From a virus (taxonomy: Duplodnaviria; Heunggongvirae; Uroviricota; Caudoviricetes): a DNA stretch of 64,000 nucleotides. Below, one piece after another: positions 15,432 through 27,770 of this stretch. Under the pieces are notes generated by a model that worked only from the letters and a program-made list of their open reading frames with translations, ran no database searches and had not been told where the DNA came from. The position numbers and the translations under genes were made by a program. Each line of letters opens with the position of its first letter. Positions within the stretch are counted from its first letter, which is position 1. The DNA is taken from IMG/VR virus record IMGVR_UViG_3300037423_001636, positions 141,169-205,168 of that record; one strand, given 5' to 3'.

Positions 15432-15506
15432 GCCTCTGTGATGTAACAGCAAGCATGTGACATTGCCAATGTCAGCGACCGAGGGCAGCACTCGGCAGGG
15501 GCACCA
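15432..15506 (+). tRNA. tRNA-Gly(GCC)
   Basis: Acceptor GCCTCTG/CAGGGGC. Anticodon arm TGACA-TTGCCAA-TGTCA. T arm CCGAG-GGCAGCA-CTCGG. Encoded CCA. Confidence 0.55.
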
Positions 15507-15654
15507 TTTTGAACGTCTCAATGTCGGCTTTCAATGGCTAAGAAAGCCCGCGAGAATGCGGGGAACGAATGGTGGGTGCCGTTGAGAGCCCTTTTCGCCA
15601 TTCTGCATGATGCTGCTGCCTCAACATCCAAGGCATCCGTTCAATTGAATTTTT

Positions 15655-15745
15655 GGGTCGGTGCCTAGAGTAGCGATTAGCTCGGCCTTTTAAGCCGCCG
15701 CGGGTCACACCGCCATCGGGGGTGCGAGTCCCTCCCGACCCACCA
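15655..15745 (+). tRNA. tRNA-Leu(TAA), class II
   Basis: Perfect acceptor GGGTCGG/CCGACCC. Anticodon loop TTTTAAG. Long variable arm. T arm GGGGG-TGCGAGT-CCCTC. Encoded CCA. Confidence 0.6.
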
Positions 15746-15751
15746 ATTTAC

Positions 15752-15826
15752 GGCGTGTTCGTCAAGTAGTAAGACCGGAGCTTGCAAACCTCCTATACGC
15801 TGGTGCAAATCCAGCACGCGCCTCCA
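15752..15826 (+). tRNA. tRNA-Cys(GCA)
   Basis: Acceptor GGCGTGT/ACGCGCC. Anticodon loop TTGCAAA. T arm GCTGG-TGCAAAT-CCAGC. Encoded CCA. Confidence 0.5.
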
Positions 15827-15976
15827 CTCTCCCCTCTGGGCTCTGCGCTTCAGCAGGCGTCTGACCAGTATGCGGGCCGACAAGGCAAACCGCGAAGGAT
15901 GCGAGGAACCATCGTTGTTGGTGAGGCTCTAGAGCCGAACTGACTATAGCCCCGACGTATACTGGGGCAGAATTTC

Positions 15977-16059
15977 GGGGGATGGGAATGCTATAGTGTG
16001 TTCGCCTGTTTCGCAAACAGGATATTAACAGTCCGGGGCAGATCCGGAATCCTCCACCA
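15977..16059 (+). tRNA. tRNA-Ala(CGC)
   Basis: Acceptor GGGGGAT/ATCCTCC with a G3:U70 alanine identity pair. Anticodon arm CCTGT-TTCGCAA-ACAGG. T arm TCCGG-GGCAGAT-CCGGA. Encoded CCA. Confidence 0.6.
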
Positions 16060-16143
16060 TTTTAACACACTGTTCATAAGGCACTTCTGTGATTTGTAGG
16101 TGGGTTGCACACAACCTCCACCATATAGCGTGTAAACCTATGC

Positions 16144-17007
16144 GTGGCAAAAAGACCTACAGTAACATTGGTGTGCGCATATACTGGAGAGACATTCGAG
16201 AAAGATCGTCGAGAATACCATCGTCAGCTTCGTAATGGGGCCACTCACTTTTACAAGGACAGTAAAGCAGCTGCTTTGGCCAGCGCTGAGGCAAGACGAC
16301 TGAAGCCAGTAGATAGGATTTGTCCACATTGCGGAAACACTTTCGAGGTGATACCGAGACGCCGGGCGGCGACATTTTGTTCTTCTCGTTGCGCTGCCCA
16401 CTATGGGCATGATCAGCTTAAAGCGAATCCGGAGCGAATGCTTACATTTCAAGAAAATGCGTCTGCGGCAGGAAAGAAAGCGTGGGCCGCCGGAAAACAC
16501 GATAACGCCATTCATCGAAATGGGCGTCGTCGCGCAAAAATCGAATCGCGTGGTTGCGCGGTGTGTGGTGCTGGGTTCGAATGCAAAGACAACAGCAAGC
16601 GCAAAACCTGCGGCAAGCCAGAATGCAAAAGGGAGGCTACTGCTCGCGGAGTTAGAGCCAACCCCAATTGTGGTGGAGAAAGCAATTATAGACGCTACAG
16701 ATACAAAGACATTTTGTTTGATTCGGCGTGGGAGCTTGAGATCGCTCAGTGGATGGACGGGGTTGGTATGCAATGGATTCGAGACAAAAAGATCTGGTTT
16801 CGCTGGACAGATCAAAATGGCACGATTAGACGTTATCACCCAGACTTCTACTTGCCCAGTTTTAATATTTATCTAGATCCCAAGAACAAGTTTCTACTGG
16901 AACGAGACGCTTTCAAGCTAGAGGCTGTGAAACGTGAGCATGGCATCAATCTCGTTTGGGGGAGTAGGGAAGAGATTTTAGTCTTCCTTCAGAATCTATT
17001 GGGGTAG
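16144..17007 (+). CDS. Putative homing endonuclease (N-terminal zinc ribbons + C-terminal PD-(D/E)xK-like nuclease domain) inserted in the tRNA array
   Basis: 287 aa. There are several CxxC pairs (CPHCG, CAVCG, CGKPEC). The C-terminus reads DSAWELEIAQWMD...YHPDFYLPSFNIYLDPKNK...EHGINLVW, the restriction-endonuclease-like pattern of phage homing endonucleases. It is the only ORF inside the tRNA array. Confidence 0.5.
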   Translation: MAKRPTVTLVCAYTGETFEKDRREYHRQLRNGATHFYKDSKAAALASAEARRLKPVDRICPHCGNTFEVIPRRRAATFCSSRCAAHYGHDQLKANPERMLTFQENASAAGKKAWAAGKHDNAIHRNGRRRAKIESRGCAVCGAGFECKDNSKRKTCGKPECKREATARGVRANPNCGGESNYRRYRYKDILFDSAWELEIAQWMDGVGMQWIRDKKIWFRWTDQNGTIRRYHPDFYLPSFNIYLDPKNKFLLERDAFKLEAVKREHGINLVWGSREEILVFLQNLLG

Positions 17008-17089
17008 TGGCACGACAAGTAAGGCACCGCGTTTGCAATGCGTAAGAGCGTAAGCTCGAATAGGGGCGCGATACCCCTCTACTCCACCA
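17001..17089 (+). tRNA. Class II tRNA-like unit; anticodon unresolved (loop TTTGCAA, possibly TGC)
   Basis: Acceptor GGGGTAG/CTACTCC. T arm AGGGG-CGCGATA-CCCCT. A variable-arm hairpin GAGC-GTAA-GCTC is present. Encoded CCA. The D and anticodon arms are imperfect. Confidence 0.4.
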
Positions 17090-17222
17090 TCTTGGGTATC
17101 CAATCCCGTGGCTAGAGGCCACCGTTTGGGCCGCGATAGCGTCCACCAATTTGGCTAGCGACCTTCGGGTGTCTAGCTCCCGTTTGAGTCGGGCGTTCCG
17201 CGGTGGCGATAAACCCCTTTGT

Positions 17223-17300
17223 GTGAGCGTGGGCCAGATAGCAGGCCGCCATCCTTCCAAGCTGGTTTTTACGCGGATGCGAGTTCCGCCGCTCACTCCA
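17223..17300 (+). tRNA. tRNA-Gly(TCC)
   Basis: Perfect acceptor GTGAGCG/CGCTCAC. D stem GGCC/GGCC. Anticodon loop CTTCCAA. T arm GCGGA-TGCGAGT-TCCGC. Encoded CCA. Confidence 0.5.
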
Positions 17301-17431
17301 CTTTCCCGTCCTGAGAACAAAGGCCCATTGGGACTAGCTAGCATGATTCTGGTGGGGTCAGCAAAGGCTATGGACCCGCGGTCCATATCGGATGGCTCAG
17401 CCGGATTGCAACGGCACGGGAATTCACTTTT

Positions 17432-26336: not shown

Positions 26337-26337
26337 C

Positions 26338-26413
26338 TTTCCCGTCGTCTAATCAGATAAGGCCCGGGTTTCCTAGACCCGTGAACACGGAGCATAGCCG
26401 TGCGGGAAAACCA
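26338..26413 (+). tRNA. tRNA-Arg(CCT)
   Basis: Perfect acceptor TTTCCCG/CGGGAAA. Anticodon arm CGGGT-TTCCTAG-ACCCG. T arm CACGG-AGCATAG-CCGTG. Encoded CCA. It starts 1 nt after the previous CCA. Confidence 0.55.
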
Positions 26414-26419
26414 TTTTAT

Positions 26420-26507
26420 GGAGGGTGCCGGGGCGATTCCCCAAGCGGTCTTGAAAACCGTGGTGCCGCGCAAGCGACAATGGTGAAACCCCATCACCTC
26501 TCCGCCA
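26420..26507 (+). tRNA. Class II tRNA-like, Ser-like (anticodon loop CTTGAAA, TGA); acceptor imperfect
   Basis: Anticodon arm GCGGT-CTTGAAA-ACCGT. Long variable region. T arm GGTGA-AACCCCA-TCACC. The unit ends GCCA. The acceptor pairing GGAGGGT/CCTCTCC is incomplete. Confidence 0.3.
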
Positions 26508-26544
26508 ATCTCATAGAGTTTTCTCTTGACGTGTCGTAGACACT

Positions 26545-27156
26545 GTGCATCGTCGATGTTCTATGCTCATCATCACCTTCCTATCTGGTGTCGTCGATTG
26601 GATTGTCTTTGGCTGGCTCTTCTGGGTACTGTTGCCAATCTGCATCTGGACACCACACGCCATCTGCAAATCTGCTAGGAAAGATTTTGAGGGTGGTGCG
26701 CTGTTCTTTGTATTGCCCTTACTTGGCCTCGTTTGGTGGCGCTGGCCCGGGCTGTTTCCGCACACGTGGGGTGGCTGGACATGGTTGACCGTAGCTTACC
26801 TTTTCGTTGGCTTCGTTTATTCTCTGGGCAAGTATGTCAGGACTCTAGGACGATTCAAGGCGGCGGTGCAAGCTGCCTTGCCTCTCGCAAAGGCTCGTGA
26901 TAACGGAATCCGACTTCCCTGCAATGTTCAACAGCAGTTGGACGCCGAATGGACCGGCAAGATAACAATTCTTTCAAACGATAGCGGCCTCATTCTCGAC
27001 TGGCGGCGGCTTCCCTTGGCTAACTGGTGGATTTACTGGCCGTGGTTCTCTCTAAGCTCGGTCTTTACCTTCATCCAGAATTTCGGCAAGAATCTAGTCA
27101 ACCTGTTTCGTGGGCTCTACGACAAGCTGGCGGCGCGGTTCGCAGTTAAGCTATGA
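26545..27156 (+). CDS. Hypothetical integral membrane protein
   Basis: 203 aa with several hydrophobic stretches (for example IITFLSGVVDWIVFGWLFWVLLPICIW and GGALFFVLPLLGLVWW). It lies between the Arg and Ser tRNA sub-clusters. Confidence 0.45.
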   Translation: MHRRCSMLIITFLSGVVDWIVFGWLFWVLLPICIWTPHAICKSARKDFEGGALFFVLPLLGLVWWRWPGLFPHTWGGWTWLTVAYLFVGFVYSLGKYVRTLGRFKAAVQAALPLAKARDNGIRLPCNVQQQLDAEWTGKITILSNDSGLILDWRRLPLANWWIYWPWFSLSSVFTFIQNFGKNLVNLFRGLYDKLAARFAVKL

Positions 27157-27497
27157 CTGTTACCATCTACTATTTCTTTTGCGGTCAATGGCATTACTTC
27201 GTTGCTAATCGTGAGATACTGGATTGGCCAGAAACACAGAATCTGATCGCATTGGGCTTTTATCGTGTAGATTCATGAAGACTCCAATCGTGGCGGCCGA
27301 AATCAGTCTGGACGTTCCTCACTGGAAGGTGGGCGACAATATGGGCACCGGTCCCGATGATCCCGAAGGTTTCGGTATCGGCCAGATCGCGGTTGTGGAC
27401 AAAGGCGGCGGCAAGTATGACGTTGTTTTCTACGATAAGAATGGCAAGGACCGGGGTTCGCTTAAACTAAAAAATAGGTGAAATCCTTAATAATTTC

Positions 27498-27586
27498 GGA
27501 AGGTGGGGCCACCGAGCGGTGGACCGTGATTGGAAATCACGTGCCTCGGGAAACCGGGGCCAGCGCGACTCTGGCACCTTCCGCCA
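27498..27586 (+). tRNA. tRNA-Ser(GGA), class II
   Basis: Perfect acceptor GGAAGGT/ACCTTCC. Anticodon arm CGTGA-TTGGAAA-TCACG. Long variable arm. T arm GCCAG-CGCGACT-CTGGC. Encoded CCA. The D arm is an unusual 5-bp stem with a 4-nt loop. Confidence 0.6.
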
Positions 27587-27587
27587 T

Positions 27588-27678
27588 GGAGGACAAACTG
27601 ACATAGGGTCAGGCTCGTTTCGAAAACGATGCGGAGATGAATCAAGCTCTGGAGTGCAACGCTTCCTGTCCTCCTCCA
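27588..27678 (+). tRNA. Class II tRNA, Ser-like (CGA); T arm unresolved
   Basis: Perfect acceptor GGAGGAC/GTCCTCC with an encoded CCA. Anticodon arm (C)TCGT-TTCGAAA-ACGA(T). The unit is 91 nt long. No clean 5-bp T stem was found. Confidence 0.4.
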
Positions 27679-27685
27679 TTTTTAC

Positions 27686-27770
27686 GGTAGCGTAACCAGA
27701 TAGGGTGCTGGACCTCATTGCTAATGAGTGGGACGGGGTAACCAATCCACGTTGGATTTCGAGTATTCAC
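27686..27770 (+). tRNA. tRNA-Ser(GCT), class II, with a canonical T loop
   Basis: Perfect acceptor GGTAGCG/CGCTACC. Anticodon arm CTCA-TTGCTAA-TGAG. Long variable arm. T arm TGGAT-TTCGAGT-ATTCA (canonical TTCG loop). Encoded CCA. Confidence 0.6.

What the first reader, a model, noticed from the sequence alone, without database searches (positions are those of the whole stretch)
15432..27770. Very large phage tRNA gene island with an almost codon-complete anticodon set
I resolved about 44 tRNA or tRNA-like units and estimate 45-60 in total. They are packed with 1-10-nt spacers, and each ends in an encoded CCA followed by (A/T)TTT. The anticodons cover Gly, Leu, Cys, Ala, Tyr, Ile, Phe, Pro, Asp, Val, Asn, Gln, Lys, Thr, Glu, His-like, Arg and Ser. 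Several four-codon boxes have separate T34, G34 and C34 isoacceptors: Pro TGG/GGG/CGG, Thr TGT/GGT/CGT, Leu TAG/GAG/CAG, Arg TCG/GCG plus TCT/CCT, and Ser TGA/GGA/CGA plus GCT. Ala has the G34 and C34 pair GGC/CGC. This would make decoding nearly independent of wobble. The identity elements are bacterial: G3:U70 in both Ala tRNAs, long variable arms only in Leu, Ser and Tyr, and G-1/C73 in the His-like unit. These argue that the units are functional tRNAs rather than decayed copies. Isoacceptors are partly grouped by amino acid: a Leu run at 20347-20611, a Pro run at 18772-18928, Arg around the RNA ligase, and Ser at 26420-27770.
Basis: seen in the sequence. Interest (0 to 1): 0.85.

Follow-up and report, generated by a model that had tools for sequence, protein, structure and literature searches.

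The report
Phage tRNA island with altered elbows
A 12-kb stretch of an uncultured phage genome encodes a complete, non-redundant set of about 42 transfer RNAs, nearly all built with an unusual corner ("elbow") in which two almost universally conserved bases are swapped together, so standard tRNA finders detect only about half of them.

Summary
Window 15432-27780 (+ strand) holds 42 assignable tRNA genes covering all 20 amino acids (41 different anticodons, CAU twice). It also holds 4 further CCA-ended tRNA-like units. All 46 encode CCA, and 35 are followed by (A/T)TTT.

ARAGORN plus Rfam at curated thresholds find only 22. A covariance model trained only on tRNAs from other loci finds 42 hits at E<0.05: 39 of the assigned tRNAs and 3 of the tRNA-like units. 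There is no hit at E<1 elsewhere in the 64 kb, and 95% of stem positions pair.

The tools miss half because 40 of 42 tRNAs have G instead of the near-universal U at T-loop position 55, and most have A-G instead of G-G in the D-loop. In 1,151 tRNAs from phage and bacterial arrays these two changes go together almost perfectly. This is the G/intercalating-A rule of riboswitch T-loops.

A Ro60 gene with Y-RNA-like modules, an HNH-RNA ligase and homing endonucleases lie inside the island. The same tRNA-array-plus-Ro60 module sits in Opitutaceae chromosomes.

I read it as a self-sufficient phage tRNA and RNA-repair operon. Its benefit, independence from a damaged host tRNA pool, is inferred.

The parts
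15432..15506 (+). tRNA-Gly(GCC); T-loop GGCAGCA, D-loop AACAGCAA
   Evidence: R1 54.6 bits; scanner 22.7; missed by ARAGORN default and by Rfam
15655..15745 (+). tRNA-Lys(UUU) with 19-nt variable arm; T-loop TGCGAGT
   Evidence: ARAGORN; Rfam 34.4 bits; R1 27 bits; same type in L026-L028 and L030
15752..15826 (+). tRNA-Cys(GCA); T-loop TGCAAAT
   Evidence: ARAGORN; Rfam 45.6 bits; R1 53.7 bits
15977..16059 (+). tRNA-Ala(CGC), G3:U70, 10-nt variable region; T-loop GGCAGAT
   Evidence: R1 28.4 bits; scanner 22.2; ARAGORN only at -ps80
17001..17089 (+). tRNA-Ala(UGC), G3:U70, 18-nt variable arm; T-loop CGCGATA
   Evidence: R1 39.3 bits; Rfam 28 bits, just under its threshold; fold
17223..17300 (+). 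tRNA-Gly(UCC); T-loop TGCGAGT
   Evidence: ARAGORN; R1 53 bits
17432..17518 (+). tRNA-Tyr(GUA), long variable arm, A73
   Evidence: ARAGORN; Rfam 43.5 bits; R1 39.1 bits
17524..17598 (+). tRNA-Ile(GAU); T-loop TGCGAAT
   Evidence: ARAGORN; Rfam 44.3 bits; R1 60.6 bits
17603..17673 (+). tRNA-Trp(CCA) with 4-nt D-loop; T-loop AGCGTTA
   Evidence: R1 38.8 bits; ARAGORN -ps80
17815..17887 (+). tRNA-Phe(GAA) with 4-nt D-loop; T-loop TGCGATC
   Evidence: R1 17.4 bits, E 1.4e-4 in the local search, alignment shown
17896..17986 (+). CAU tRNA (Met or Ile2) with GAAA-capped long variable arm; T-loop TGAAACT; weakest of the assigned set
   Evidence: ARAGORN -ps80, tRNA-Met; scanner 13.5; fold; not found by R1
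17994..18068 (+). tRNA-Pro(UGG)
   Evidence: ARAGORN; Rfam 48.4 bits; R1 57.7 bits
18169..18242 (+). tRNA-Asp(GUC)
   Evidence: ARAGORN; R1 48.2 bits
18528..18603 (+). tRNA-Val(UAC)
   Evidence: Rfam 44.1 bits; R1 62.4 bits
18611..18688 (+). tRNA-Asn(GUU); T-loop AGCGTAA
   Evidence: R1 32.2 bits; ARAGORN -ps80
18693..18767 (+). tRNA-Val(GAC)
   Evidence: ARAGORN; R1 55.1 bits
18772..18846 (+). tRNA-Pro(GGG); T-loop GGCAGCA
   Evidence: Rfam 45.8 bits; R1 64.4 bits
18853..18928 (+). tRNA-Pro(CGG); one of only two with U55 (T-loop ATCGTAA), and it has GG in the D-loop (AAGGGCA)
   Evidence: R1 28.9 bits; scanner
18933..19046 (+). 114-nt tRNA-like unit: 7-bp acceptor, T-arm (TGAAATA), G73-CCA, expanded D region, 9-nt loop; unassigned
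   Evidence: fold z -1.8; R1 13.7 bits on its 3' part; not found in other loci
19053..19126 (+). tRNA-Gln(UUG)
   Evidence: ARAGORN; Rfam 47.5 bits; R1 53.3 bits
19133..19206 (+). tRNA-Gln(CUG)
   Evidence: ARAGORN; Rfam 51.7 bits; R1 62.6 bits
19212..19287 (+). tRNA-Ala(GGC), G3:U70; D-loop AGCCAGTA, T-loop AGCGAAG
   Evidence: Rfam 52.3 bits; R1 70.5 bits
19626..19704 (+). tRNA-Lys(CUU)
   Evidence: R1 39.1 bits; ARAGORN -ps80
19710..19794 (+). 85-nt tRNA-like unit (5-bp acceptor, T-loop TGAAATT, A73-CCA, 11-nt loop containing CAU); unassigned
   Evidence: fold z -1.7; CCA+ATTT tail; no tool call
20105..20192 (+). CAU tRNA (Met or Ile2) with 17-nt variable arm; T-loop GGCAGTA
   Evidence: R1 33.8 bits; Rfam 25.7 bits; scanner 20.8
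20199..20273 (+). tRNA-Thr(GGU); T-loop CGCAAGT
   Evidence: R1 58.8 bits
20347..20429 (+). tRNA-Leu(GAG)
   Evidence: ARAGORN; Rfam 42.8 bits; R1 41.3 bits
20436..20520 (+). tRNA-Leu(UAG)
   Evidence: ARAGORN; Rfam 39.5 bits; R1 35.6 bits
20527..20611 (+). tRNA-Leu(CAG); T-loop TGGAAAT (G56) with AC in the D-loop (C19:G56 swap)
   Evidence: ARAGORN; Rfam 39 bits; R1 37 bits
20746..20823 (+). tRNA-Glu(UUC)
   Evidence: R1 47.8 bits; ARAGORN -ps80
20829..20903 (+). tRNA-Glu(CUC)
   Evidence: Rfam 45.2 bits; R1 62.3 bits
20908..20961 (+). 54-nt minihelix-like unit: 7-bp acceptor plus T-arm plus G73-CCA, no D arm or anticodon arm
   Evidence: R1 19.6 bits, E 0.0015; fold
20968..21057 (+). tRNA-Leu(UAA)
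   Evidence: ARAGORN; R1 32.5 bits
21217..21300 (+). tRNA-Leu(CAA)
   Evidence: ARAGORN; Rfam 44.7 bits; R1 41.1 bits
21393..21467 (+). tRNA-like cloverleaf with aberrant anticodon loop CCAGATT (no U33 or R37); unassigned
   Evidence: R1 20.7 bits, E 8e-4; scanner 16
21577..21653 (+). tRNA-Thr(CGU)
   Evidence: R1 41.8 bits
21678..21858 (+). Y-RNA-like module 1, bracketed by CGGTTACTTC and CGCCTGTTCC
   Evidence: exact bracket motifs; the same brackets flank the YrlA hit beside Ro60 in L002
21892..21950 (+). Y-RNA-like module 2 (short), same brackets
21974..22263 (+). Y-RNA-like module 3. It contains a circularly permuted tRNA-like domain at about 22167-22230: T-arm GAGAG-TTCGAAC-CTCTC, acceptor, then D-arm GTGT-AATGGCA-GCAC, with a canonical elbow
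   Evidence: sequence read directly; motifs; 5' motif GTAGCGAAGATCGCGGTTACTTC resembles L002 GTAGTGAAGATTACGGTTACTTC; no Rfam YrlA hit in the window itself
22342..23850 (+). Ro60 orthologue (TROVE plus vWA)
   Evidence: Pfam TROVE 1.1e-17; phrog_850 1.3e-36; 44% identical to the crAss001 TROVE protein
23795..24700 (-). LAGLIDADG homing-endonuclease-like gene
   Evidence: Pfam LAGLIDADG_3 3.9e-7; phrog_4645 2e-17
24754..24825 (+). tRNA-Thr(UGU) with reduced D arm; T-loop GGCAGCA
   Evidence: R1 32.4 bits, alignment shown
24833..24920 (+). tRNA-His(GUG): encoded G-1 at 24832, C73, long variable arm; T-loop TGTGAGA
   Evidence: R1 30.2 bits, alignment shown; fold
24927..25001 (+). tRNA-Arg(GCG)
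   Evidence: ARAGORN; Rfam 55.2 bits; R1 64.2 bits
25030..26079 (+). HNH-RNA ligase fusion protein
   Evidence: Pfam RNA_ligase 4.6e-33; phrog_24030 3e-129 plus N-terminal HNH hits
26086..26162 (+). tRNA-Arg(UCU); T-loop TGGGATT (G56) with AC in the D-loop
   Evidence: ARAGORN; Rfam 50.5 bits; R1 63.4 bits
26261..26336 (+). tRNA-Arg(UCG)
   Evidence: R1 42.7 bits
26338..26413 (+). tRNA-Arg(CCU)
   Evidence: ARAGORN; R1 52.5 bits
26420..26507 (+). tRNA-Ser(UGA), long variable arm, G73
   Evidence: ARAGORN -ps80; Rfam tRNA-Sec model 25.2 bits; scanner 16.3
27498..27586 (+). tRNA-Ser(GGA)
   Evidence: R1 20.1 bits; ARAGORN -ps80
27588..27678 (+). tRNA-Ser(CGA)
   Evidence: R1 15.7 bits, E 0.015; ARAGORN -ps60
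27686..27780 (+). tRNA-Ser(GCU); canonical T-loop TTCGAGT with GG in the D-loop
   Evidence: ARAGORN -ps80; scanner 19.6; R1 10.1 bits
14744..15331 (-). HNH endonuclease gene flanking the island
   Evidence: phrog_2255 1.9e-38
16144..17007 (+). endonuclease-like ORF inside the island
   Evidence: phrog_1271 and phrog_15137
27820..28497 (+). HNH endonuclease gene at the 3' edge
   Evidence: Pfam HNH_4; phrog_16726 6e-20
28506..28525 (+). strong intrinsic-terminator-like hairpin followed by a T run; likely end of the transcription unit

Best explanation
The island is a working, largely polycistronic tRNA operon of a large (at least 121 kb) uncultured phage. It encodes one tRNA for each of 41 anticodons (CAU twice), enough to read every sense codon.

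Shown:
- 42 units are cloverleaves with compensatory pairing.
- They carry bacterial identity elements and an encoded CCA.
- The anticodon set is complete and non-redundant.
- 40 of 42 have G55, mostly with A18-G19 instead of G18-G19.
- The outer elbow pair 19:56 is kept and co-varies (G:C, C:G, U:A).

Inferred:
- Transcripts are cut at the AU-rich CCA-(A/U)UUU spacers by an RNase E/G-type endonuclease, 5' ends are made by RNase P, and 3' ends are trimmed back to CCA.
- Host synthetases charge the tRNAs.
- A18 intercalates into a UGCRA T-loop and contacts G55, as in riboswitch-type T-loops. The L-shape and the 19:56 stacking platform used by the ribosome and RNase P are therefore preserved, while the substrates of TruB (Psi55), often TrmA (U54) and TrmH (G18) are absent.
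- The embedded Ro60 with Y-RNA-like RNAs and the HNH-RNA ligase provide RNA surveillance and repair, and homing endonucleases spread the module.
- Most likely benefit: phage translation stays independent of a host tRNA pool that is depleted or cleaved during infection.
For: - Detection and structure.
- Anticodon catalogue and identity elements.
- Codon usage: every codon is used, and 72% have a Watson-Crick cognate anticodon.
- Elbow covariation, set 1 (644 distinct tRNAs): G55 goes with AG in 451, GG in 14, other in 54. U55 goes with GG in 102, AG in 4.
- Elbow covariation, independent set 2 (507 tRNAs from 120 further viral loci): G55 with AG 110, GG 1. U55 with GG 349, AG 4.
- Inside the window, the only two U55 tRNAs (18853, 27686) are also ones with GG in the D-loop.
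- Positions 54:58 co-vary: U:A 465, A:U 50, G:G 51, C:A 38, C:C 26.
- Structural precedent: FMN and cobalamin riboswitch T-loops are YGNRA with an intercalating adenosine that hydrogen-bonds to the position-2 G, whereas tRNA uses UUCRA (bioRxiv 10.1101/2022.12.26.521914).
- The canonical elbow is otherwise conserved, and Psi55 is the most universal tRNA modification (PMC7912444).
- Gene context: Ro60, RNA ligase and endonucleases; Y-RNA modules.
- The same array-plus-TROVE module next to a LysR gene occurs in Opitutaceae chromosomes.
- Phage tRNAs are known to rescue infection from tRNA-cleaving defences (PMC11464382, PMC11555353).
Against: - There are no expression, processing, charging or modification data, and the phage is uncultured (a single Logan contig).
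- Promoter-like and terminator-like sites in the island are not above shuffled expectation.
- About 10 of the 40 G55 tRNAs lack a clear A18-G19. Several (Trp, Phe, Thr-UGU) have 4-nt D-loops that cannot form a standard elbow.
- The host's housekeeping tRNAs could not be inspected, so I cannot say that this elbow differs from the host's own.
- The anti-defence benefit is by analogy only. No known nuclease that reads position 18 or 55 was found in the papers read.
- Four units (18933, 19710, 20908, 21393) cannot decode in a standard way.
Confidence: 0.7

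Rival explanations
1. This is classical codon-usage compensation. The phage (53% GC, GC3 0.62) carries tRNAs only to supplement codons that are rare in a higher-GC host, and the odd elbow is neutral drift within a mobile tRNA lineage.
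For: Phage GC is about 53% and its codon usage is balanced. Verrucomicrobial candidate hosts are usually GC-richer (my own knowledge). G55 tRNAs of many identities are scattered singly in otherwise canonical phage arrays, as expected for freely exchanged genes.
Against: The set is complete. It includes C34 and G34 isoacceptors for GC-ending codons that a GC-rich host would already serve well. The 18:55, 19:56 and 54:58 covariations show selection on the elbow, not drift. The co-located Ro60, Y RNA and RNA ligase point to RNA damage rather than codon supply.
Confidence: 0.12
2. This is a passenger L-array: a selfish, homing-endonuclease-driven tRNA cassette recently captured from a bacterial chromosome (or the reverse), largely silent in the phage.
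For: Five endonuclease-like genes lie in or around the island. Near-identical architecture (G55 tRNA array plus TROVE plus Y-like RNAs) sits in Opitutaceae chromosomes beside a LysR regulator. L-arrays spread horizontally and are often poorly transcribed (PMC8421152).
Against: No tRNA is duplicated apart from CAU and none is obviously broken. Stems pair at 95%. The phage Ro60 is only 32% identical to the L038 chromosomal one, so any transfer is old and the module has been maintained since. All genes share the strand of the flanking phage genes.
Confidence: 0.13
3. The A18/G55 elbow is simply the normal tRNA form of the host lineage, so the phage tRNAs mimic host tRNAs and nothing about the elbow is special to the array.
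For: Hundreds of such tRNAs lie in Opitutaceae and other Verrucomicrobiota assemblies, including two complete chromosomes. Bdellovibrionales have a chromosomal tRNA-Cys with a TGCGAGT T-loop.
Against: All Opitutaceae examples seen are dense arrays with encoded CCA, not dispersed genes. The Y-RNA tRNA-like domains in the same arrays keep the canonical GG and TTCGA elbow (window, L002, L038). G55 tRNAs also occur singly inside canonical arrays of many unrelated viral contigs.
Confidence: 0.12
4. Many units are not decoding tRNAs but decayed copies or tRNA mimics, for example decoys for tRNA-targeting nucleases or substrates for Ro60.
For: Standard tools miss half of them. Four units are clearly non-standard. 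Long variable arms in Lys, Ala, His and Met tRNAs and 4-nt D-loops are atypical.
Against: There are 41 distinct anticodons with U33 and R37 in nearly all. G3:U70 occurs only in the Ala tRNAs and G-1:C73 only in His. Every stem pair shows compensatory change. A model trained on other loci scores 36 units at E<1e-4.
Confidence: 0.05

Closest known systems
Large tRNA gene arrays of big phages (T4-type clusters with Seg homing endonucleases; jumbo and huge phages with dozens of tRNAs)
   Same: Dense same-strand tRNA cluster in a large phage, interspersed with homing endonucleases and small ORFs, covering most or all amino acids. Cultured examples inspected here are Caulobacter phage CcrBL9 and Aeromonas phage Aes012. 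The SegB precedent is cited in PMC8421152.
   Different: The cultured examples inspected have canonical TTCGA T-loops and GG D-loops. Here 40 of 42 tRNAs have G55. The set is complete and non-redundant, and a Ro60/Y-RNA/RNA-ligase module is embedded.
Bacterial long tRNA arrays (L-arrays; Santamaria-Gomez et al. 2021, PMC8421152)
   Same: Up to about 43 supernumerary tRNA genes in one operon, horizontally mobile, with neighbouring homing endonucleases, and reported in Verrucomicrobia. The Opitutaceae arrays found here share T-loop types, CCA-WTTT tails and a TROVE gene with the window.
   Different: This one is in a phage genome. The paper does not mention T-loop, U55 or G18 features. The Anabaena array is induced by translational stress; nothing is known about regulation here.
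rsr-yrlBA-rtcBA RNA repair operon and YrlA Y RNAs (PMC4201824, PMC7790460)
   Same: A Ro60 orthologue is preceded on the same strand by Y-RNA-like modules. One has a permuted tRNA-like domain (T arm, acceptor, D arm). An RNA ligase gene lies nearby. YrlA has been reported next to Ro60 in 22 phages.
   Different: The ligase is of the PF09414 type fused to HNH, not RtcB. The window modules do not reach any Rfam YrlA score, and a related locus scores 40.4 bits, below the 69-bit threshold. There are three tandem modules, one with a long insertion.
Riboswitch and rRNA T-loop/receptor motifs (YGNRA T-loop with an intercalating adenosine; bioRxiv 10.1101/2022.12.26.521914)
   Same: The sequence rule is the same: G at T-loop position 2 goes with an adenosine donor. 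The variants UGNRA, CGNRA and a GGAAG-like class are mirrored by the TGCRA, CGCAA and GGCAG tRNA T-loops.
   Different: Here the motif sits in the tRNA elbow itself, where U55/G18 is otherwise near-universal (PMC7912444). No structure of such a tRNA is known to me.
Phage tRNAs that neutralise tRNA-cleaving defences (T5 tRNA-Lys against PARIS, PMC11464382; tRNA-Tyr against retron Eco7, PMC11555353)
   Same: Phage-encoded tRNAs that differ structurally from host tRNAs and keep translation going when host tRNAs are cut.
   Different: Those cases involve single tRNAs with anticodon-arm changes. Here a whole set has an altered elbow and extra variable arms, and no cognate defence system is identified.

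Membership tests
tRNA (Rfam RF00005 / canonical cloverleaf) | Four-helix cloverleaf (7-bp acceptor, D, anticodon and 5-bp T stems) supported by covariation | tested here: met
   42 R1 hits. 95.3% of cells pair, against 41-45% in slid controls, and 20 of 20 pairs show compensatory change.
tRNA (Rfam RF00005 / canonical cloverleaf) | Score at or above the curated Rfam gathering threshold (29 bits), or an ARAGORN default call | tested here: inconclusive
   17 reach the Rfam threshold and 18 are ARAGORN default calls. The union is 22 of 42. The rest fall below.
tRNA (Rfam RF00005 / canonical cloverleaf) | Conserved elbow nucleotides G18-G19 and U54-U55-C56 | tested here: not met
   40 of 42 have G55, and most have A18-G19. 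Position 54 is U, A, G or C. C56 is mostly kept or co-varies with position 19.
tRNA (Rfam RF00005 / canonical cloverleaf) | 7-nt anticodon loop with U33 and purine 37, plus amino-acid identity elements | tested here: met
   True for nearly all 42 (exceptions include Val-GAC, Ala-GGC, Val-UAC). G3:U70 in the 3 Ala tRNAs; G-1:C73 in His; A73 in Leu and Tyr.
tRNA (Rfam RF00005 / canonical cloverleaf) | Aminoacylation and use on the ribosome | not testable with these tools
   Needs experiments.
Phage tRNA array / bacterial L-array | Twenty or more same-strand tRNA genes at high density, supernumerary and mobile, often with homing endonucleases | tested here: met
   42 tRNAs in 12.35 kb on one strand. 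24 junctions have 1-8-nt spacers. There are five endonuclease-like genes.
YrlA Y RNA (RF02553) | Encoded within 4 kb of Ro60 on the same strand | tested here: met
   Modules at 21678-22263, directly upstream of Ro60 at 22342.
YrlA Y RNA (RF02553) | Permuted tRNA-like domain (T arm, acceptor stem, D arm) plus a 5' Ro-binding motif (GNCGAA-type) | tested here: inconclusive
   Module 3 shows T arm, acceptor and D arm in that order, and a GTAGCGAAG 5' motif, read by eye. The motif resembles the one described in PMC4201824.
YrlA Y RNA (RF02553) | Rfam covariance score at or above 69 bits | tested here: not met
   No hit in window 21600-22400 at E<=10. The related L002 element scores 40.4 bits, E 1.7e-7.
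Ro60 / TROVE protein | TROVE domain above the Pfam cut-off followed by a vWA domain | tested here: met
   TROVE 64.8 bits against a cut-off of 23. The vWA_Ro60 hit is weak (17.5 against 27.7), but the DxSGS motif is present.
RNA ligase (PF09414) | Nucleotidyltransferase domain with a KxDG motif, above the Pfam cut-off | tested here: met
   115.2 bits against a cut-off of 27. KMDGEN is read in the sequence. phrog_24030 3e-129.

The most novel reading that the evidence does not exclude
The A18:G55 tRNAs form a structurally orthogonal "shadow" tRNA pool, shared between phages and inducible chromosomal arrays of Verrucomicrobiota. The pool keeps the ribosome- and RNase P-facing 19:56 platform. It has lost the universal G18/U54/U55 recognition and modification sites, and often gains a variable arm. 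It is therefore invisible to a factor that recognises canonical tRNA elbows, whether a host defence tRNase or a phage-made host-shutoff nuclease. The co-encoded Ro60 uses Y RNAs that retain the canonical elbow to sense, decoy or dispose of host-type tRNAs. On this reading, whole-set tRNA replacement, not codon tuning, is the purpose of the island.
Probability: 0.25. Interest if true: 0.85.

Novelty: new variant of a known kind. Interest (0 to 1): 0.62.

Why it matters
1. Annotation. Default tRNA finders recover about half of this island, so tRNA counts for uncultured phages and for bacterial tRNA arrays are probably systematic underestimates. G55-type tRNAs were validated in 49 of 120 further viral loci picked by a T-arm pattern.

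2. RNA structure. A natural, large and diverse family of tRNAs replaces the near-universal G18-Psi55 contact with the A/G rule used by riboswitch T-loops. It also samples alternative 54:58 pairs. This is a ready-made comparative data set on what the tRNA elbow really needs. These tRNAs would lack Psi55, and often m5U54 and Gm18.

3. Phage biology. A complete, non-redundant tRNA set sits beside a Ro60, Y RNA and RNA ligase module, and the same module lies in Opitutaceae chromosomes. This points to a mobile "translation back-up and RNA repair" cassette. It makes the question of why phages carry whole tRNA sets experimentally testable.

Tried and rejected
- Megablast of the island against 50,697 phage records found nothing.
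- Distant blastn of two tRNA runs hit only single canonical tRNAs (Ala, Leu) of cultured phages. The two I inspected (CcrBL9, Aes012) have canonical elbows, so no cultured relative of the G55 set was found.
- DNA-polymerase relatives in IMG/VR (L004-L012) carry no comparable array within 10 kb.
- A fixed-offset mutual-information table for D-loop against T-loop positions was noisy, because D-loop lengths vary. I relied on the flexible 18-19 classification and on within-array contrasts instead.
- The promoter and terminator scan was uninformative, with counts at shuffled expectation.
- Six full-text literature searches found no description of G55/A18 tRNAs in phages or arrays. A seventh concerned Y RNAs. 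Absence from the searchable library does not prove novelty.
- I tried to see housekeeping tRNAs of Opitutaceae in the fetched 8-kb genome loci.
- Rejected: a tRNA-Sec reading of 20968 and 26420 (Rfam tRNA-Sec hits of 30.6 and 25.2 bits are far below the 47-bit threshold; the anticodons are UAA and UGA-Ser).
- Rejected: an intron reading of the long units (the ARAGORN -i calls were scattered and mostly on the wrong strand).
- The 114-nt unit 18933-19046 was not found in any other fetched locus.

Full report
**Observation.**
- The window is phage DNA. It carries a DnaB-like helicase, Toprim primase, exonucleases and a family-A-type DNA polymerase (PHROG and Pfam hits). Its GC content is about 53%. 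It comes from a 121,338-bp Logan contig.
- Between 15432 and 27780, on the + strand only, there is a dense series of CCA-terminated units.
- CCAWTTT occurs 48 times in the window against 17.3 expected, and 37 of these are on the + strand of the island.
- ARAGORN with default settings tRNAs.
- Rfam at its threshold in the whole-window run, and 17 at or above 29 bits when only the island is searched. The union of ARAGORN and Rfam is 22.
- With relaxed ARAGORN settings, many more calls appear exactly where the CCA ends predict them.

**Independent test.**
- I wrote a cloverleaf scanner anchored on CCA. Its best background score is 15.0 on the reverse strand of the whole window and 12.9 on the forward strand outside the island. 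About 40 island units score 15.6-23.1.
- I then built a covariance model (R1) from 95 tRNAs taken only from other loci and ran it unfiltered on all 64 kb.
- It gives 42 hits at E<0.05 (36 at E<1e-4). All are on the + strand inside the island, and nothing elsewhere reaches E<1. The 42 hits are 39 assigned tRNAs plus the tRNA-like units 20908, 21393 and 18973-19046.
- On the resulting alignment, 95.3% of stem cells are standard pairs, against 41-45% when partners are slid by 1-3 columns. All 20 pairs show changes on both sides.

**Catalogue.**

| Amino acid | Anticodons |
|---|---|
| Ala | UGC, GGC, CGC |
| Arg | GCG, UCG, UCU, CCU |
| Asn | GUU |
| Asp | GUC |
| Cys | GCA |
| Gln | UUG, CUG |
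| Glu | UUC, CUC |
| Gly | GCC, UCC |
| His | GUG |
| Ile | GAU |
| Leu | UAA, CAA, UAG, GAG, CAG |
| Lys | UUU, CUU |
| Met / Ile2 | CAU (twice) |
| Phe | GAA |
| Pro | UGG, GGG, CGG |
| Ser | UGA, GGA, CGA, GCU |
| Thr | UGU, GGU, CGU |
| Trp | CCA |
| Tyr | GUA |
| Val | UAC, GAC |

- This is 42 genes and 41 different anticodons covering all 20 amino acids. All 61 sense codons are readable if one CAU tRNA serves AUA.
- Three assigned tRNAs are not R1 hits at E<0.05: 17896, 26420 and 27686. They rest on ARAGORN -ps80 calls, the scanner, and weak Rfam or R1 scores.
- Four more CCA-ended units are tRNA-like but cannot be assigned:
  - 18933-19046, 114 nt;
  - 19710-19794, 85 nt;
  - 20908-20961, a 54-nt acceptor plus T-arm minihelix;
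  - 21393-21467, with an aberrant anticodon loop.
- G3:U70 is present in all three Ala tRNAs. His has an encoded G-1 and C73.
- The phage uses every codon. 72% of its codons have a Watson-Crick cognate anticodon in the island.

- Only 35 of 46 units have (A/T)TTT after CCA.
- Short spacers of 1-8 nt hold at 24 junctions. Other gaps are 64-400 nt or contain ORFs.
- Long variable arms are also present in Lys-UUU, Ala-UGC, His-GUG and both CAU tRNAs.
- Trp, Met and Ala-UGC were missed.
- "Nearly independent of wobble" is too strong.

**Why the standard tools fail.**
- 40 of 42 tRNAs have G at T-loop position 55. The T-loops are TGCGAGT, TGCAAGT, GGCAGCA, AGCGTTA, CGCAAGT and similar. In their D-loops, most carry A-G where tRNAs normally have G18-G19, for example AGCCAGTA in Ala-GGC.
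- The register is secure. The T stem pairs in 97.5% of cells, and its closing pair is G:C in 35 of 42.
- The canonical G18-U55 and G19-C56 contacts are described as conserved in all domains of life. Psi55 is described as the most universally conserved tRNA modification (PMC7912444).

**Covariation.**
- A search for one such T arm found 19 IMG/VR contigs and 39 genome loci.
- In 644 distinct tRNAs from the window and these loci:
  - G55 goes with A-G at positions 18-19 in 451, G-G in 14 and other in 54;
  - U55 goes with G-G in 102 and A-G in 4.
- A second, independent sample of 120 viral loci gave 507 tRNAs:
  - G55 with A-G 110, G-G 1;
  - U55 with G-G 349, A-G 4.
- Both forms occur side by side in the same arrays (L016, L027, L030 and others), so shared ancestry alone does not explain the association.
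- Inside the window, the only two U55 tRNAs (Pro-CGG and Ser-GCU) have G-G.
- The outer pair 19:56 is retained and co-varies. C19:G56 occurs in Leu-CAG and Arg-UCU. U19:A56 occurs in several array tRNAs.
- Positions 54:58 also co-vary: U:A 465, A:U 50, G:G 51, C:A 38, C:C 26.
- The rule that G at T-loop position 2 goes with an intercalating adenosine is exactly what is reported for FMN and cobalamin riboswitch T-loops. Their consensus is YGNRA, with an adenosine inserted between positions 4 and 5 that hydrogen-bonds to the position-2 G. tRNAs use UUCRA (bioRxiv 10.1101/2022.12.26.521914).
- I therefore infer that A18 docks on a UGCRA loop and that the L-shape is preserved. This has not been shown structurally.

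**Context.**
- Inside the island lies a Ro60 orthologue (TROVE plus vWA, 22342-23850).
- It is preceded by three tandem modules bracketed by CGGTTACTTC and CGCCTGTT(C/A)C.
- The same brackets flank an element beside the Ro60 gene of a related viral contig (L002). That element matches Rfam YrlA at 40.4 bits, E 1.7e-7, below the 69-bit threshold.
- The third window module contains a circularly permuted tRNA-like domain in the order T arm, acceptor, D arm. This is the YrlA architecture (PMC4201824). Notably, it has a canonical TTCGAAC T-loop and AATGGCA D-loop.
- The window itself gives no Rfam YrlA hit.
- Also present: an HNH-RNA ligase fusion (25030-26079), a LAGLIDADG gene on the opposite strand, and three further HNH or endonuclease-like genes.
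- Ro60, Y RNAs and an RNA ligase together recall the bacterial rsr-yrlBA-rtcBA repair operon (PMC7790460).

**Relatives.**
- The genome hits are mostly Opitutaceae, Lacunisphaera and Opitutus assemblies, including two complete chromosomes.
- They carry arrays of 10-30 tRNAs per 8 kb with the same T-loop types, A-G D-loops, encoded CCA and WTTT tails.
- In L038 and L048 the array lies next to a LysR regulator gene. L038 contains a TROVE gene preceded by several Y-like modules with canonical elbows. That TROVE protein is 32% identical to the phage protein.
- These look like the horizontally mobile "L-arrays" described in several phyla, including Verrucomicrobia (PMC8421152). That paper does not mention the elbow.
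- Verrucomicrobiota is thus the most likely host lineage. This is an inference.
- IMG/VR contigs L014 (172 kb), L017 (219 kb), L029 and L136 have G55-dominated arrays like the window. Most other viral arrays have only one or a few G55 tRNAs among canonical ones.
- The cultured phages I inspected (CcrBL9, Aes012) have canonical elbows.

**Mechanism.**
- Shown: these are structurally sound tRNA genes that form a complete, non-redundant decoding set with a co-varying alternative elbow.
- Inferred:
  - polycistronic transcription ending at the strong terminator at 28506-28525;
  - endonucleolytic cuts in the AU-rich spacers, RNase P at the 5' ends and trimming to the encoded CCA;
  - charging by host synthetases;
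  - loss of the TruB, TrmA and TrmH target sites;
  - RNA surveillance and repair by Ro60, Y RNA and the ligase;
  - spread by homing endonucleases.
- The most likely selective benefit is translation that does not depend on a host tRNA pool damaged during infection. This is by analogy with phage tRNAs that defeat PARIS and retron tRNases (PMC11464382, PMC11555353). It is not tested here.
- Rivals: codon compensation only; a silent selfish passenger array; a host-wide elbow type; non-decoding mimics. These are weighed separately in the report.

**Novelty.**
- Large phage tRNA arrays, bacterial L-arrays and phage Ro60/Y RNA are all known.
- A near-complete tRNA set with a systematically substituted 18:55 elbow, and class-II-like Lys, Ala, His and Met tRNAs, appears not to have been described. 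Six full-text searches on this question found nothing, but the searchable library is incomplete.
- I rate it a new variant of a known kind.

Noticed in passing
window 36782-38110 (+): This ORF matches phrog_1211, '2-aminooxy adenylosuccinate synthetase' (PurZ-like), at E 2e-68. The phage may make a modified purine, as in Z-genome-type DNA.
   Followed up: no
window 31871-32503 (+); 33895-34980 (+); 52624-54402 (+): A NADAR-domain protein (1.4e-35), a weak protein-kinase-like ORF and an SPFH/Band 7 protein lie downstream of the island. They are possible counter-defence or host-takeover genes.
   Followed up: no
window 19839-20103 (+): Weak Rfam match to the manA RNA motif (24.7 bits, E 0.0056, far below the 55.2-bit threshold), in a 400-nt gap between tRNAs.
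   Followed up: no
window 18073-18168, 20278-20346, 20616-20745 (+): These inter-tRNA spacers fold better than shuffles (z -2.6, -2.4, -2.2). Other spacers do not (15511-15654, 15831-15976, 21305-21392, 26167-26260). The content of the 64-400-nt gaps is unexplained.
   Followed up: partly
window 17680-17754 (+) and 17094-17148 (+), 26167-26247 (+): Further segments end in CCA plus a T-rich tail but do not fold as tRNAs. 17680-17754 has closing ends TGCTG/CAGCA and an internal GTTCGAT. R1 gives it only 4 bits.
   Followed up: partly
L026, L027, L028, L030 (IMG/VR); L191 = Caulobacter phage CcrBL9 81826-81912: tRNA-Lys (UUU or CUU) with a 15-22-nt variable arm recurs in unrelated phage arrays, including a cultured phage where it is annotated simply as tRNA-Lys. 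Long-arm CAU and Ile tRNAs also recur.
   Followed up: partly
L032, L035, L036, L041, L045, L046, L049, L050, L061, L062, L070 (Bdellovibrionales assemblies): The single chromosomal tRNA-Cys(GCA) of these bacteria has T-loop TGCGAGT (G55) with D-loop GAGGAGTTA. This is an apparently native G55 tRNA outside any array.
   Followed up: no
L051 (Undibacterium oligocarboniphilum), about 6347-6881 on the - strand: Three tandem tRNA-Leu(CAG) copies. Two have TTCGAGT and one has TGCGAGT, all with a GG D-loop. This is a sporadic U55-to-G change without the A18 partner.
   Followed up: no
all scanned loci: T-loop positions 54 and 58 co-vary in discrete classes: U:A, A:U, G:G, C:A, C:C. The GGCAG class resembles the rRNA-type GGAAG T-loop mentioned in bioRxiv 10.1101/2022.12.26.521914.
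   Followed up: partly
window 20305-20334 (+): The best sigma-70-like site in the island (TTGACA-18-TAGAGT) lies just upstream of the Leu run at 20347. Overall promoter-like counts are not above chance.
   Followed up: no
L038 5490-6200 (Lacunisphaera chromosomal array): At least four or five tandem Y-RNA-like modules (GGTAGTGAG...GGTTACTTC...TTCTCCC) precede the TROVE gene. Several have permuted tRNA-like domains with canonical GGTTCGA and AATGGTA elbows, in an array whose tRNAs are all G55-type.
   Followed up: partly
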